NCBI GenBank assembly: GCA_963757545.1
Contig: CAVWSA010000025.1
Coordinates: 6,898-70,897, forward strand
Source: an uncultured Actinomycetes bacterium
GTDB taxonomy: Bacteria; Actinomycetota; Actinomycetes; Streptosporangiales; Streptosporangiaceae
Direction of reading: 5' to 3'
Length of the DNA stretch: 64,000 bases
The translations under genes and the position numbers were made by a program. The stretch's first letter is position 1. Every line of letters begins with the position of its first letter. The notes below the pieces were generated by a model. That model was given only the letters and a program-made list of their open reading frames with translations. It was not told where the DNA came from and ran no database searches. Below, one piece after another: positions 38,079 through 42,026 of this stretch.

Positions 38079-41000
38079 TCAGCCAGGCCCGGTTTTGCGC
38101 AGCGATGGCCGCGTGGTGCGGCTCAGCTCGGTACCCGGTTCCGGCGGCGCTGGCGGCGGTCCGGCTGGCGGCGCACCGGCGGACGGCTCGGCTGCCGGCG
38201 GCGGCGCGGCTGGCGGCTCCGCGGCCGCGACCGCCCGCTGGTAGGCGTCGCGCAGCCGGGCCACCTCGGCCTGCGGGTTCGTGGAACCAGTTGGTGGACC
38301 ACAGCCGGTGGAAACTCCAGCCGAGCCGCTGCAGGTGCTCGCCGCGCAGCCGGTCCCGGTCGCGGACGCTGCCGCGAGGCGTGGTAGGACGCGCCGTCGG
38401 TCTCGATGGCCAGCACCATCCGGCTGACGTCGTCCGGGTGGGTGGCGGCGAAGTCGACCCGGTAGCCGCCGACCCCGTACTGCGGCACCACGGTGATCCC
38501 GCACGCGGCCAGCCGGTCCCGCACGTCGGCCTCGAAACGGGTTCAGCTCGGAGCGGCCCGACGCCTCGGCGCACGTGCCGCCCGGACCCGGCGTACTCCA
38601 GGTAGTCGGCCAGCAGCCGGGCACCGGCCTTGGTCACCCGGTCCGGGTCCACATCGTGCTGGAGAACGAGCTGACCAGGGTGAGCCGGTGCTTGGCCCGG
38701 GTCGCGGCCACGTTCAGCCGGCGCTCGCCGCCGTCGCGCAGCAGCGGGCCCCACTGGTACCGCATCCGGCCGTCCGGGTGCTTGCCGTACCCGATGGACA
38801 GGATGATCGCGTCCCGCTCGTCGCCCTGCACGCGCTCCAGGTTCTTGACGAAGAACGGCTCGGCCGTGTCCTCGGCGAAGAAGGCCTCCAGGTCGGGGTG
38901 CGCGGCCAGCGCGTCGCGCAGCGCCGCGTCGATCCGCTCCGCGTGCTTGATGCCGAGCGCGATCACGCCGAGCGACTGCCGCGGCTGGGTCCGGGCGTGC
39001 TCCAGGATCAGCTCGACCACCTTGTCCACCTCGGCCGTGACCGACACCTCCTGGCCCCGCTCCGGGCCCTGCGCCGACCACCACGTGGCGCAGGCAGTCG
39101 TCGCGCAGCACGCCGGGGAACGTGGTCAGCGCGCCGCCGTAGATGTGCGCGTTGGAGAACGCCACCAGCCGCTCGTCCCGGCTGCGGTAGTGCCAGGTCA
39201 GCGGCGCGGTCGGGAGCAGCGGGCGGAGCGCGTCGAGCACCGACTCGAAGCCCGCGCCGAACGAGACCAGGCTCTCGTCATCGTCCGGCTCGGCCGCCGT
39301 CGCCGTCATCGCCGAACTGGCGGAAGAAGTTGGTCGGCGGCAGCTGCCGGTCGTCCCCGGCGACCACGATCTGGTGCCCGCGCATGACGGACGGGATCGC
39401 GTCGGCCGGGACGATCTGGCTGGCCTCGTCGAAGATGACCACGTCGAACAGCCGGGTCGGCGGGCAGCACCTGGCTGACCATCAGCGGTGACATGGCCCA
39501 GCACGGCTTGAGCGCGAACAGCACGTCGCTGGTCTGGTCGAGCAGCCGCCGCAGCGGCAGATGGCCGGCGGCGCAGCGCCGCCTGCTTGCGGATGACCCG
39601 GGCCTGCAGCGGGTGCCGGTCCTGGGCGTCGCGCAGCCGGTCCGCCCAGGCGCGGCGGACCCGGCCGGCGTTGGCCGCCAGGTGCGCTATGTCCCGGACC
39701 CGGAAGTCGCTGGCGATCTCGTCCAGCGCGCCGCCGCGGTGCGCGGCATAGCCGCGGATCGCGGACCCGCATCTGATCCAGGATCGAGCGAGTACCACGC
39801 GTATCGAACGCGGCGGCGGCCAGCTCCGGGCCCGGCCTCGCGGCGGGCCAGCTCGTCCAGCAGCGGGCCGAGGCCCAGCTCGGCGAAGCCCGACGCGAGC
39901 TGGTACAGCCGGGGCAGCTGCCACGCGGTGTCCTGGTCCGCGGCCAGCTCGGCCAGCTGGACCGCGGGATCCTCGCCGGCAGCGAGACGTAACCGCGCAG
40001 CAGGCCCAGCTGCGCGTCGCAGTGCGCGCCGATCTCGGTCAGCTCCGGATAGCTGGCCGGCAGCCGGGGCAGGCCCTGCGTCGGTGCTCAGCTCGCGCCA
40101 CTGGCCCGAGCTCGGCCGGCGGCCGGCGCGGAGCTGCTGGTGCAGCTCCTCGCGGGGCGGCTCGGCCGTCGCCGATGGCCAGCGCGCGGGCCTGCTTGCG
40201 CAGCGCCCGGCGATCCAGGAAGCTCAGCCCGGCCCCGTCGCCCGTCGCGGCGGCCAGCCGGTCCGGGCCGGCCGCGTACACGGCTGGCCCGAGGTGACCG
40301 CAGCGGTCTGCGCGACCGCCGCGTACAGCCGCAGCACTGGCCACCGCGTCCGGGTAGCCGCGCGGCGGCCGCAGCCCAGGTCTCCGCCGCCGCGCGGGCC
40401 ACCCGGTGCAGCAGCGCGGGCAGCTCATGCGAGCTGAGCCGGGCCACGATGTCGCACGCCTGGCGGGCCTGGTCCGGGGTGCGCAGCGCGGCGCCGTACC
40501 ACGGCGTGCTGCCCGGGCGCAGGGTGAAGCCACCCAGGTGGGCGAACTCGCGCAGCTCGTCCCGGATCTGGTCGGCCGCCTCCCGGGTGATCTGCTCCGG
40601 CCCGGCCAGCCGGACCGGGGTGCGCGCTTCGTCCGGCCCGCCGAGCAGCGCGGCCTGCACCTCGAACGGGGTCAGCCCCCACGGCTTGTGCACGTCGTGC
40701 AGCGCGGTCGCGTGCTGGCTGAGCCGCTGCTGCCGGTCCACCAGGCGGCGGTGCAGGTCGGTCAGGTCCGGCGCCGGCGGTGCGCTGCGCTTCATCCAGG
40801 GTGTCGCCCAGGTCACGGGCGATGCGCAGCCGGTCCCGGGTGCCTTCGTGGATGTCCAGCACCATGCCGCCCAGGCCGACTCCCTTGAGCCGGGACAGCA
40901 CCGCGTCGATGGCGGCCCGTTTCTCCGCGACGAACAGCACCTTGCGGCCCCGGGCGACCAGGGTGGCGATCAGGTTGGCGATGGTCTGGCTCTTGCCCGG

Positions 41001-42026
41001 TGCCGGGCGGCCCGTGGATGACCAGGCTGCGCCCGGCCAGCACCGCGCCGATCGCGCTGCGCTGCGAGGAATCGGCGTCCAGCACCGAGTAGTCCTCTTC
41101 GGGGGAATCCAGCAGCGGCCCGCTGGCCTCGCCGATGGCCGGGTCGGCCGCGCCCAGGGATTCCTGCGCCTCCGGGTCGCCGGCGATGGCCGCCACCACG
41201 TCACTGTCGTCCAGTAGCTCGGCCGCGGCTCTGCAGGTCCCGCACCATGGGCAGCTTGGCGTAGGTGAACGTGCCGATCACCTGCGCGGTCGGTGATCGC
41301 GAAGCCGGGGACCTCGGCCGCCTCGGCGGCCCGGCCAGCAGCGGGCCGACCCGGCTGGCCGCGCTGCTCGGCCAGTTCCTCGGTGGCCGCGCCGAACACG
41401 CTGGCCAGCTTGTAGCAGCAGGACCGGGTTGACCTCATAGCTCGTCGTCCAGCACCAGCTCGAAGTCGTCGTGCCGGGCCCGGGTCGGCGTGATGGTCAG
41501 GCCGCGCAGCAGCACCGGCGCGGCCGGCTCGAGGAACAGCTCGTCCCAGCGCGCGATGCCGATGGCCAGGTAGCCGGCCCGGATGCCGCGCTCCTCCAGC
41601 AGTTCCCGGGCCTTGCGGTGGATGACCTGGACCCGGCGGATCGCGTCGGCCCGTGCGTCGACGTCGTGGAACAGCCGGGTCAGCCGGGTCGAGCCGGTGC
41701 GCAGGAACCGGTCCAGCGCGGCCGGGTCGGCGGCGGCCAGGTCCAGCGTGCCGGCCCGGCGGTCTTTGTAGTAGAGCAGCGTGTTGCGGCCGCCCAGGTC
41801 GGTCAGCGCGGCGACCCAGCGGGCCTGCGCCGCCGCGATGAGCTCGGCGCGGCGCCGGTCGGCCGGGTCACCGCCATCCGCCGGGTCACCGCCATCCGCC
41901 GGTCGCGCCGTCCGCCGGCTCGCGCCATCCGCCTCGGCGCCATCCGCCTCGCGCCATCCGCCGCTCAGCATCAGCCAGCCGCTCGCCGTCGTCCGCCTGC
42001 TCGCTGTCGTCCCGCTGCTCAGCCAT
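38079..42026 (-). pseudogene. DUF4011 + superfamily-1 helicase (AAA_11/AAA_12) + DUF559/Vsr-like endonuclease protein (~1300 aa), heavily frameshifted
   Basis: Recognisable blocks, in order:
- LTDLGGRNTLLYYKDRRAGTLDL (DUF4011)
- [41 protein letters not shown] (Walker A)
- [12 protein letters not shown], then [15 protein letters not shown]
- [15 protein letters not shown]
- VQGDERDAIILS and [16 protein letters not shown]
- VDFAATHPDDVSRMVLAIETDGASYH...DRDRLRGEHLQRLGWSFHRLWSTNW (DUF559-like)
The blocks are spread over at least ten frame switches, and an in-frame TGA lies at 41435-41437. The start is ATG 42026, or ATG 41971. Confidence 0.75.
41865..41966 (-). repeat. coding tandem repeats in the helicase N-terminus: (ADGAE)x3 and (PADGGD)x2
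   Basis: On the plus strand, GGGTCACCGCCATCCGCC occurs x2 (41865-41900). GCGCCATCCGCCTC-type 15-nt units occur x3 (41917-41966). Confidence 0.5.

What the first reader, a model, noticed from the sequence alone, without database searches (positions are those of the whole stretch)
38079..42026. Decayed Hhe-like nuclease-helicase (DUF4011 + SF1 helicase + DUF559/Vsr-like endonuclease)
When stitched across frames, the minus strand encodes one ~1300-aa protein. Its parts, in order, are a DUF4011-type N-terminus, a Upf1-like SF1 helicase core ([32 protein letters not shown]) and a C-terminal DUF559/very-short-patch-repair-like nuclease fold (VDFA...AIETDG..YH...DRDR...LGW...RLWS..W). This is the architecture described for the single-gene Hhe anti-phage system. 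It is the most damaged gene in the window, with at least 10 frame switches, one in-frame stop, and two switches within 40 nt at 41400-41440. It is followed by a low-GC remnant region. That pattern fits an inactivated defence gene. No partner genes such as a methylase or toxin are visible.
Basis: partly seen in the sequence, partly recalled or inferred. Interest (0 to 1): 0.6.

Follow-up and report, generated by a model that had tools for sequence, protein, structure and literature searches.

The report
Defence helicase-nuclease broken by assembly errors
The gene is a real Hhe/Prometheus-type defence helicase-nuclease, but its roughly 33 frameshifts look like consensus errors of a noisy long-read metagenome assembly, not biological decay, so the finding is ordinary.

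Summary
Window 38079-42026 (minus strand) encodes, across about 28 frame switches, a roughly 1,280-aa protein with DUF4011, a split SF1 helicase core (AAA_11/AAA_12) and a C-terminal MTES_1575 (Vsr/DUF559-like) nuclease. Its best defence model is PADLOC PDC-S37; Hhe comes second. NCBIfam puts ProA (Prometheus) above Hhe, and both scores fall below their equivalog cut-offs.

The "decayed gene" reading is probably wrong.
- Four congeners carry intact, syntenic orthologues at 85-93% aa identity.
- Against them, this copy has about 33 lineage-specific frameshifting indels, 29 of them single-base insertions. It has no indel over 15 nt, no in-frame stop and no excess of substitutions.
- The same insertion-dominated damage occurs genome-wide, with 1,600-3,600 candidates. 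rpoB is split, both ddl loci are fragmented, and the coxLSM, Lhr and kdp genes are equally riddled.
- Inserted bases tend to match a neighbouring polymorphic allele, which suggests a consensus built from mixed strains.
- Copies of this gene are frameshifted in 3 of 7 Nanopore MAGs and in none of 6 short-read MAGs.

Real loss does occur in relatives: two species keep only deletion scars at this locus. Other notes from this scan on the same window describe the same frame damage.

The parts
38079..42026 (-). Whole coding region of the DUF4011 / SF1 helicase / MTES_1575 nuclease gene. It needs about 28 frame switches to read through and is single-copy in this genome.
   Evidence: Three-frame reading and stitching. 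Collinear with intact 1,276-1,290-aa orthologues in G042, G044, G052 and G041. Only one copy found in G000.
41850..42026 (-). N-terminal acidic low-complexity region with 15-/18-nt repeats. It holds one further frame change and varies in length among orthologues.
   Evidence: Translation. A 4-nt deletion and a 2-nt insertion relative to G042 at about 41890-41904. Orthologue N-termini differ.
41405..41806 (-). DUF4011 domain
   Evidence: PF13195, 2.4e-11 on the stitched protein (residues 15-147) and 8.9e-11 on the raw ORF piece.
40809..41073 (-). Helicase domain 1A with Walker A (GPPGTG|KS). In the assembly one extra base interrupts the motif.
   Evidence: PF13086 AAA_11, 8.5e-21, residues 259-346. 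Frame switch at about 40996.
39470..40800 (-). Roughly 450-aa helical insertion between Walker A and Walker B, with no Pfam match. It is the densest stretch of frame switches (11 indels in 40-41 kb).
39332..39451 (-). Walker B / motif II-III (VVIFDEASQ ... [11 protein letters not shown]), the second half of AAA_11.
   Evidence: PF13086 profile positions 213-253, 2.1e-8, on the raw piece.
38667..39201 (-). Helicase domain 2A (AAA_12) with motifs V-VI ([17 protein letters not shown]).
   Evidence: PF13087, 1e-10 on the stitched protein and 3.7e-11 on the raw piece.
38244..38537 (-). PD-(D/E)xK nuclease domain REase_MTES_1575 (Vsr/DUF559-like): VDFA ... AIETDG ... YH.
   Evidence: PF18741, 1.1e-30, covering profile positions 1-95 of 96. 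DUF559 is marginal at 3e-4.
38079..38243 (-). Pro/Ala-rich C-terminal tail and stop codon. There is no DUF3320 domain.
   Evidence: Translation. Pfam at E<=1 on the intact orthologue shows no DUF3320.
38281..41904 (.). Patch of dense lineage-specific frameshifting indels: 33 in total, 29 insertions and 4 deletions. None is longer than 15 nt.
   Evidence: Alignment to G042 and G052. The flanks carry about 0.9/kb.

Best explanation
The locus is an ordinary single-gene candidate anti-phage helicase-nuclease. Its product of about 1,280 aa has DUF4011, a Upf1/DNA2-like SF1 helicase and an MTES_1575 PD-(D/E)xK nuclease. It is a short relative of Prometheus ProA and Hhe, and falls under PADLOC class PDC-S37.

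In the organism the gene is most likely intact. Its apparent decay comes from the assembly. The genome is a noisy, long-read-type metagenome bin whose consensus carries thousands of mostly single-base insertion errors, concentrated in kb-scale patches. This gene lies in one of the worst patches.

A plausible cause (inferred, not shown) is consensus calling over reads from co-occurring strain variants. At SNP sites both alleles are kept as an extra base. This would be worse where coverage is low or diversity is high, as expected for a variably present defence gene.

The function is also inferred, by homology. The helicase would load or translocate on foreign nucleic acid using ATP, and the fused nuclease would cut it.
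For: 1. Intact syntenic orthologues exist in four congeners: G042 93%, G044 90%, G052 90% and G041 85% aa identity.

2. The lesion spectrum is unnatural for decay. There are 33 lineage-specific frameshifting indels, 29 of them insertions, and nearly all are 1 nt and not homopolymer extensions. None exceeds 15 nt. There are 0 stops in 1,266 frame-corrected codons. Helicase and nuclease motifs are all retained.

3. There is no excess of substitutions. Lineage-specific substitutions run at 21-29/kb in the gene. The flanks show 13-51/kb and the intact G042 lineage 25-42/kb. Synonymous counts are 42-47, against 40-57 in the intact lineages.

4. The damage is genome-wide.
- My GC3 frame HMM finds 1,604 (strict) to 3,641 (sensitive) frameshift candidates. 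About 70-75% are insertion-type, and the strict rate is about 3-10 times that in relatives.
- CheckM-type completeness is only 79.8% for a 6.66-Mb, 47-contig bin.
- rpoB is split.
- Both ddl loci are fragmented and neither reaches the TIGR01205 cut-off.
- The C16 ddl has at least 9 insertion-type frameshifts in 1.18 kb, while its orthologues are intact.
- The coxLSM patch has 44 indels in 3.4 kb.
- About 15-20 patches are as dense as this one.

5. The signature matches elsewhere. In the gene, 29% of inserted bases are homopolymer-adjacent and 57% create a CpG. In the cox patch the figures are 24% and 52%.

6. The inserted base equals an allele that an orthologue carries at the adjacent column in 11 of 25 cases in the gene (null 3.5, P about 0.0005). 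In the cox patch it is 6 of 18 (null 1.8, P about 0.009).

7. There is a link to sequencing technology. Of 13 family-level copies of this gene, 0 of 6 in short-read SMAG bins are frameshifted. Among Microflora Danica Nanopore bins 3 of 7 are, one of them with 6 frame changes. Those bins were assembled with metaFlye and a single Medaka round (PMC12313526).

8. A follow-up note on the same window (e1-3939263) also traced an apparent gene fusion to one extra base.
Against: - No indel was verified directly, and the sequencing platform of this particular bin is inferred from its statistics and its relatives.
- Indel density rises sharply at the gene's borders, from about 0.9/kb to 8.4/kb. Gene-specific relaxed selection would give the same pattern.
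- The lineage-specific nonsynonymous/synonymous count ratio is higher here (0.83) than in the intact lineages (0.26-0.48), and the excess is not clustered at the indels. The ddl patch shows the same elevation (1.09), so this may also be error.
- The gene is demonstrably dispensable in the genus. G002 and G013 keep only deletion remnants at the same locus, so real loss here has precedent.
- The mixed-strain mechanism rests on a statistical association only.
Confidence: 0.8

Rival explanations
1. True pseudogene. The defence gene was inactivated in this lineage and is decaying. Assembly noise only adds to real lesions.
For: - Damage is about 9 times denser than in the flanks and bounded by the gene.
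- The N/S count ratio is 0.83, against 0.26-0.48 in the intact lineages.
- Relatives G002 (115-bp scar) and G013 (600-bp internal fragment) have really lost the gene at this syntenic locus.
- Only 4 of 39 genus members searched hold an intact copy.
Against: - There are no excess substitutions, no nonsense codon and no indel over 15 nt.
- The insertion:deletion ratio is 29:4, whereas natural bacterial decay is deletion-biased (established knowledge, Mira/Ochman/Moran 2001).
- At most about 20-25 excess substitutions accompany 33 indels. From my own knowledge of mutation-accumulation studies, spontaneous indels run at roughly a tenth of the substitution rate.
- The identical lesion type and signature occur in rpoB, both ddl loci and coxLSM.
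- Inserted bases mirror neighbouring polymorphic alleles.
Confidence: 0.15
2. The gene is polymorphic in the sampled population, present in some strains and deleted in others as in G002 and G013. The assembled copy comes from a low-coverage minority, so its consensus is poor. The gene is intact in the strains that carry it but is being lost at population level. This is a specific sub-case of the best explanation, not additive to it.
For: - The error patch coincides with the gene.
- Deletions with similar end points are fixed in sister species.
- The region just upstream (42.1-50 kb) is also structurally variable between species.
- The bin contains two divergent versions of another locus, Lhr on C30 and C46, which suggests mixed strains.
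Against: No coverage information is available. Other error patches cover conserved genes (ddl, coxLSM) that are present in all relatives examined, so presence/absence polymorphism is not needed to produce a patch.
Confidence: 0.3
3. Programmed or phase-variable frameshifting: slippage-prone repeats switch the defence gene on and off.
For: The N-terminus holds 15-/18-nt tandem repeats with a frame change inside (note e1-3939282).
Against: Twenty-seven further switches are spread over the whole gene. Most are at non-repetitive, non-homopolymer sites (8 of 28 homopolymer-adjacent). The repeat units are multiples of 3 nt, so slippage would not change the frame. Orthologues read in one frame.
Confidence: 0.01

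Closest known systems
PADLOC PDC-S37 (single-gene 'phage defence candidate' class, PADLOC-DB v2; the meaning of the PDC label is from my own knowledge)
   Same: It is the best-scoring defence model. The intact orthologue scores 4e-256 (851 bits) and the stitched window protein 5.8e-252. It is likewise a single gene with no partner.
   Different: The model has 1,550 positions and the best stretch covers only 768-1350. The protein is shorter, at 1,276 aa. As a candidate class it has, to my knowledge, no published experimental validation.
Prometheus (ProA), a single-protein defence system validated in Pseudomonas aeruginosa, as described in PMC13700489
   Same: N-terminal DUF4011, a DNA2/Upf1-like SF1 helicase, and a single-gene system. 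It is the best NCBIfam hit (NF058533, 1.1e-249, 832 bits).
   Different: The score is below the equivalog cut-off of 1,500 bits. The protein is about 1,280 aa against a model of about 1,900. It has no C-terminal DUF3320, one of the four domains reported as essential (PMC13700489). Only profile positions 1132-1716 align in the best stretch.
Hhe (Gao et al. 2020 class; NCBIfam NF042953 'DUF4011 domain-containing anti-phage protein Hhe')
   Same: DUF4011 + helicase + Vsr/DUF559-like endonuclease in one polypeptide. Strong HMM hits: PADLOC 8e-127 and NCBIfam 3e-171.
   Different: It is second to PDC-S37 and ProA in both libraries. Its 572 bits fall well short of the 2,000-bit cut-off. About 500 aa shorter. 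The nuclease is best described as MTES_1575, with only a marginal DUF559 score.
Indel-ridden genes in long-read assemblies (Watson & Warr 2019, from my own knowledge; Microflora Danica long-read MAGs, PMC12313526)
   Same: Many genes are split by single-base indels, marker-gene completeness is depressed, and the damage is patchy. The relatives of this bin come from that Nanopore-only catalogue.
   Different: The errors here are mostly non-homopolymer insertions rather than the classical homopolymer deletions. They sit next to polymorphic sites, which suggests strain mixing rather than pure base-calling error.

Membership tests
Hhe | Whole-protein score at or above the NCBIfam equivalog cut-off (NF042953, 2,000 bits) | tested here: not met
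   572 bits on the intact orthologue.
Hhe | DUF4011 + SF1 helicase + Vsr/DUF559-type endonuclease in one protein | tested here: met
   Pfam DUF4011, AAA_11/AAA_12 and MTES_1575 (1e-30), with DUF559 marginal.
Hhe | Best-scoring defence model is Hhe | tested here: not met
   PADLOC gives PDC-S37 851 bits against Hhe 422 bits. NCBIfam gives ProA 832 against Hhe 572.
Prometheus (ProA) | Whole-protein score at or above the NCBIfam equivalog cut-off (NF058533, 1,500 bits) | tested here: not met
   832 bits.
Prometheus (ProA) | Four-domain organisation including a C-terminal DUF3320 (PMC13700489) | tested here: not met
   No DUF3320 at E<=1. The protein ends 50 aa after MTES_1575.
PADLOC PDC-S37 | Significant best match to the PDC-S37 HMM, in a single-gene context | tested here: met
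   4e-256 as top hit. No defence partner in the flanks. Profile coverage is only partial.
Any anti-phage system | Protects a host against phage when expressed | not testable with these tools
The genomic context is not a defence island, and neighbourhoods differ outside the genus.
SF1 (Upf1/DNA2-like) helicase | Walker A, Walker B (DEAS) and motifs III, V and VI present | tested here: met
   [34 protein letters not shown] and [11 protein letters not shown] in the stitched sequence. PDB hits to IGHMBP2, DNA2 and Upf1.
Genuine pseudogene | Frame disruptions present in the organism's DNA, i.e. in the majority of reads | not testable with these tools
Genuine pseudogene | Excess lineage-specific substitutions and nonsense codons accompany the indels | tested here: not met
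   Substitution density equals that of the flanks and of the intact lineage. 0 stops in 1,266 codons.
Genuine pseudogene | Relaxed selection (raised nonsynonymous/synonymous ratio) specific to this gene | tested here: inconclusive
   N/S is 0.83 against 0.26-0.48. The conserved ddl gene in another error patch shows 1.09.
Genuine pseudogene | Damage specific to the gene rather than a property of the assembly | tested here: not met
   rpoB, both ddl loci, coxLSM, Lhr and about 15-20 other patches carry the same lesions.

The most novel reading that the evidence does not exclude
Two readings are not excluded.

(a) The gene is caught in the act of being lost. One or a few of the lesions are real, or the gene survives only in a minority of strains of the sampled population. 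This would match the fixed deletion scars in sister species G002 and G013.

(b) The short three-domain form (DUF4011-helicase-MTES_1575, about 1,280 aa, no DUF3320) found across uncultured Streptosporangiaceae is a functional, minimal variant of the Prometheus/Hhe defence proteins. That would show DUF3320 to be dispensable in some lineages.

The probability given is for (a) or (b) taken together being true and demonstrable.
Probability: 0.3. Interest if true: 0.35.

Novelty: new member of a known kind. Interest (0 to 1): 0.12.

Why it matters
The biological importance is small. The gene is one more member of the DUF4011 helicase-nuclease defence clan, in uncultured soil Streptosporangiaceae, at a chromosomal spot where congeners have either kept it or deleted it.

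The practical lesson matters more for the scan. In this bin, and probably in other long-read MAGs of the same kind, frameshift-riddled genes should not be read as pseudogenes. Other 'decayed gene' notes on this window (16.9-49.5 kb) likely share this cause.

A cheap reference-based test came out of the work. It asks whether the lesions are:
- dominated by single-base insertions;
- free of excess substitutions;
- made of inserted bases that mirror a neighbouring polymorphic allele.

This pattern separates such artefacts from real decay when reads are unavailable.

Tried and rejected
- A DNA search of relatives found only fragments. The protein search with the stitched sequence was needed to find the intact orthologues.
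- I first thought G013's 92%-identical copy was a second noisy full-length copy. It is an internal 600-bp remnant flanked by deletions.
- I suspected a frameshift at Walker A shared with G006, which would have implied an ancestral lesion. The G006 piece is a non-syntenic fragment of about 100 aa from a 45%-identical paralogue, so it is not informative.
- I expected the excess nonsynonymous changes to be alignment artefacts next to the indels. They are not clustered there, so the excess stands. I now read it as substitution error or allele mixing, because ddl shows the same excess.
- High GC as the cause of the patch was rejected. 35.5-36.5 kb is equally GC-rich (0.77-0.78) and has no lineage-specific indels.
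- Homopolymer-type Nanopore error as the sole cause was rejected. Only 8 of 28 insertions are homopolymer-adjacent, below the 45% null.
- The primary Prometheus paper was not found in the held library. I used the description in PMC13700489.
- Structure prediction, fold search and the large protein-database searches were not run. They would not bear on the decay question.
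Full report
**What is at the coordinates**

The window is G000:C25:6898-70897, from a 6.66-Mb bin of 47 contigs. Marker-gene completeness is only 79.8%, and GC is about 72%.

On the minus strand between 42026 (ATG) and 38079 (stop) no single frame is open. Pieces in all three frames join into one protein.
- Pfam on the raw pieces finds DUF4011, AAA_11, AAA_12 and REase_MTES_1575 in that order.
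- I stitched a 1,256-aa read-through from 28 pieces with 27 frame switches. One more switch lies in the acidic N-terminal repeat.
- On the stitched sequence Pfam gives MTES_1575 1e-30, AAA_11 8.5e-21, DUF4011 2.4e-11 and AAA_12 1e-10. DUF559 is only marginal.

The supposed in-frame stop at 41437-41435 is an out-of-frame TGA exposed by an extra base. In the orthologue-guided frame, 1,266 codons contain no stop.

**Which family**

- PADLOC ranks PDC-S37 first (5.8e-252 stitched; 4e-256 and 851 bits on an intact orthologue). Hhe is second (8e-127, 422 bits).
- NCBIfam ranks the Prometheus protein ProA first (832 bits, cut-off 1,500) and Hhe second (572 bits, cut-off 2,000).
- The protein is about 1,280 aa, against models of 1,800-1,900 positions. 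It lacks the C-terminal DUF3320, one of the four Prometheus domains reported as essential (PMC13700489).
- PDB sequence relatives are IGHMBP2, DNA2 and Upf1, through the helicase core only.

It is thus a short member of the DUF4011 helicase-nuclease defence clan. It is related to Hhe and ProA but is an equivalog of neither.

The flanks are a lysyl-oxidase-like secreted protein and a GH9/CBM3 cellulase, not defence genes.

**Relatives**

A six-frame search of 39 genomes of the genus found intact, single-frame orthologues in four species: G042 at 93% aa identity, G044 at 90%, G052 at 90% and G041 at 85%. At least three of them (G042, G052, G041) sit between the same flanking genes.

Two other species keep only scars at the same locus.
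- G002 (98% complete) has a 115-bp piece of the nuclease domain between the same neighbours.
- G013 has a 600-bp internal fragment flanked by deletions of about 2.85 kb and 0.4 kb.

Outside the genus, 71-78% identical copies lie in unrelated neighbourhoods. Record titles identify these genomes as uncultured Streptosporangiaceae soil MAGs. Some are short-read 'SMAG' bins and some are 'MFD' bins of the Microflora Danica Nanopore catalogue. That catalogue was assembled with metaFlye and one round of Medaka (PMC12313526).

The gene is accessory and repeatedly lost, not housekeeping.

**Is the damage biological?**

I aligned the window to the intact orthologues.

- *Lesion types.* Against G042 the gene carries about 34 single-base insertions, a few 1-nt deletions and nothing longer than 15 nt. 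Polarised with G042 and G052, 33 frameshifting indels are specific to this genome within 38-42 kb (29 insertions, 4 deletions). The 19 kb of alignable flanks carry about 0.9/kb.
- *Substitutions.* Lineage-specific substitutions are not elevated. The gene has 21-29/kb, the flanks 13-51/kb and the intact G042 lineage 25-42/kb over the same bins. Lineage-specific synonymous changes number 42-47, against 40-57 in the intact lineages.
- *What natural decay would need.* A gene that had drifted long enough to collect 33 natural indels should have gained hundreds of substitutions, some nonsense codons and some larger deletions, with deletions outnumbering insertions. None of these is seen.
- *The one feature that fits relaxation.* The nonsynonymous/synonymous count ratio is 0.83, against 0.26-0.48, and the excess is not clustered at the indels.

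**The same damage is everywhere in this assembly**

- *Genome-wide counts.* A GC3-based frame HMM, with a test for a missing stop codon at each same-strand frame change, finds 1,604 candidates (strict) or 3,641 (sensitive). Of these, 70-75% are insertion-type. The same method on 230 kb from eight relatives gives 0-0.9 per 10 kb (strict) for seven of them and 2.4 for G006, against 3.0 here.
- *Core genes.* rpoB is split near its C-terminus, while rpoC is intact. Both ddl loci are fragmented and neither reaches the TIGR01205 cut-off. The C16 ddl has at least 9 insertion-type frameshifts in 1.18 kb, no deletion and an N/S of 1.09. Its orthologues in three relatives are intact.
- *Other patches.* About 15-20 patches are as dense as this locus. 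They hit coxLSM, two Lhr loci, the kdp genes, P450s and others. The coxLSM patch has 44 lineage-specific frameshifting indels in 3.4 kb, 31 of them insertions.
- *Shared signature.* In the helicase gene 29% of inserted bases are homopolymer-adjacent and 57% create a CpG. In the cox patch the figures are 24% and 52%. The nulls are 45% and 32%.

An organism with broken rpoB and ddl is not viable, so this process is technical.

**A likely mechanism for the errors (inferred)**

The inserted base equals an allele that some orthologue carries at the adjacent column in 11 of 25 cases in the gene (null 3.5, P about 0.0005). In the cox patch it is 6 of 18 (null 1.8, P about 0.009). In the gene, 14 of 25 insertions fall just after a third codon position.

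This is what a consensus over reads from two diverged strain variants would produce if a SNP were rendered as 'both bases'. It explains several features at once:
- the insertion bias;
- the non-homopolymer contexts;
- the kb-scale patchiness;
- the modest excess of random-looking substitutions.

The bin also holds two 80%-identical versions of the Lhr locus, which is consistent with mixed strains.

Technology matters for this very gene. Copies in short-read bins are never frameshifted (0 of 6), whereas 3 of 7 Nanopore-bin copies are, one of them six times.

An earlier follow-up on this window likewise traced an apparent gene fusion to one extra base.

**What remains open**

The sharp rise in indel density at the gene's borders is the best argument for a gene-specific cause. 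It fits a true recent pseudogene. It fits equally a gene carried by only part of the population, and hence at low coverage. That is plausible because sister species have deleted exactly this segment.

I put about 0.8 on 'mostly artefact, gene intact in its carriers' and about 0.15 on 'at least one real inactivating lesion'. The remainder goes to other causes.

**Function (by homology only)**

The protein is a single-polypeptide SF1 helicase with a fused PD-(D/E)xK nuclease and an N-terminal DUF4011. It most likely acts as Hhe and Prometheus are thought to act. It would engage foreign nucleic acid in an ATP-dependent way and then cleave it. All catalytic motifs are retained in this copy.

**Verdict**

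The family call is roughly right but better named PDC-S37/Prometheus-like. The 'decayed defence gene' interpretation is not supported. Interest is low.

Noticed in passing
L003/L030 (G002:C7, about 132600-132715) and L029 (G013:C59:17078-18079): Sister species have really lost this gene at the syntenic locus. G002 keeps a 115-bp piece of the nuclease domain. G013 keeps a 600-bp internal fragment between two deletions.
   Followed up: partly
G000:C29:405286-408595 (rpoB); G000:C16:58932-60075 and C28:218230-219115 (ddl): Core genes are frameshifted in this assembly. rpoB is split near its C-terminus. Both ddl loci are fragmented, and the C16 copy has at least 9 insertion-type shifts in 1.18 kb.
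   Followed up: yes
G000:C40:45562-49105, C30:19274-23930, C46:6917-11774, C4:49-55 kb, C31:121-127 kb, C2:187-191 kb, C38:13-17 kb, C32:175-179 kb: About 15-20 kb-scale patches have very dense frame switches in ordinary genes (coxLSM-type dehydrogenase, Lhr helicase, kdp operon, P450s, acyl-CoA ligases). Any 'pseudogene' call in these patches is suspect.
   Followed up: partly
G000:C30:17000-25000 versus C46:5000-13000: The bin contains two versions of the same Lhr-containing locus, about 80% identical to each other. Each is 81-85% identical to the single copy in relatives. The bin may mix two related strains or species.
   Followed up: partly
window 42118-49973: The 7.9 kb upstream of the gene holds a low-GC patch, a small beta-rich protein and the GH9/CBM3 cellulase. 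G042 has only about 1.2 kb in its place, and the segment is only partly present in G052, G013 and G002. It is a structurally variable spot.
   Followed up: no
window 36466-38122: The downstream lysyl-oxidase-like secreted protein gene is itself split by one extra base near 37078. It reads as one ORF in G002.
   Followed up: partly
L064 (MFD02579.bin.2.30), L058, L062: Copies of this helicase-nuclease in other Nanopore MAGs also show frame changes (6, 1 and 1). Six short-read MAG copies show none.
   Followed up: partly
L031 (G006:C19:369481-369786): An isolated fragment of about 100 aa from a 45%-identical paralogous helicase. It has a compensated frame excursion across Walker A and lies between unrelated membrane-protein genes.
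   Followed up: partly
window 41850-42026: The acidic N-terminal repeat region (15-/18-nt units) differs in length and sequence among all orthologues.
   Followed up: no
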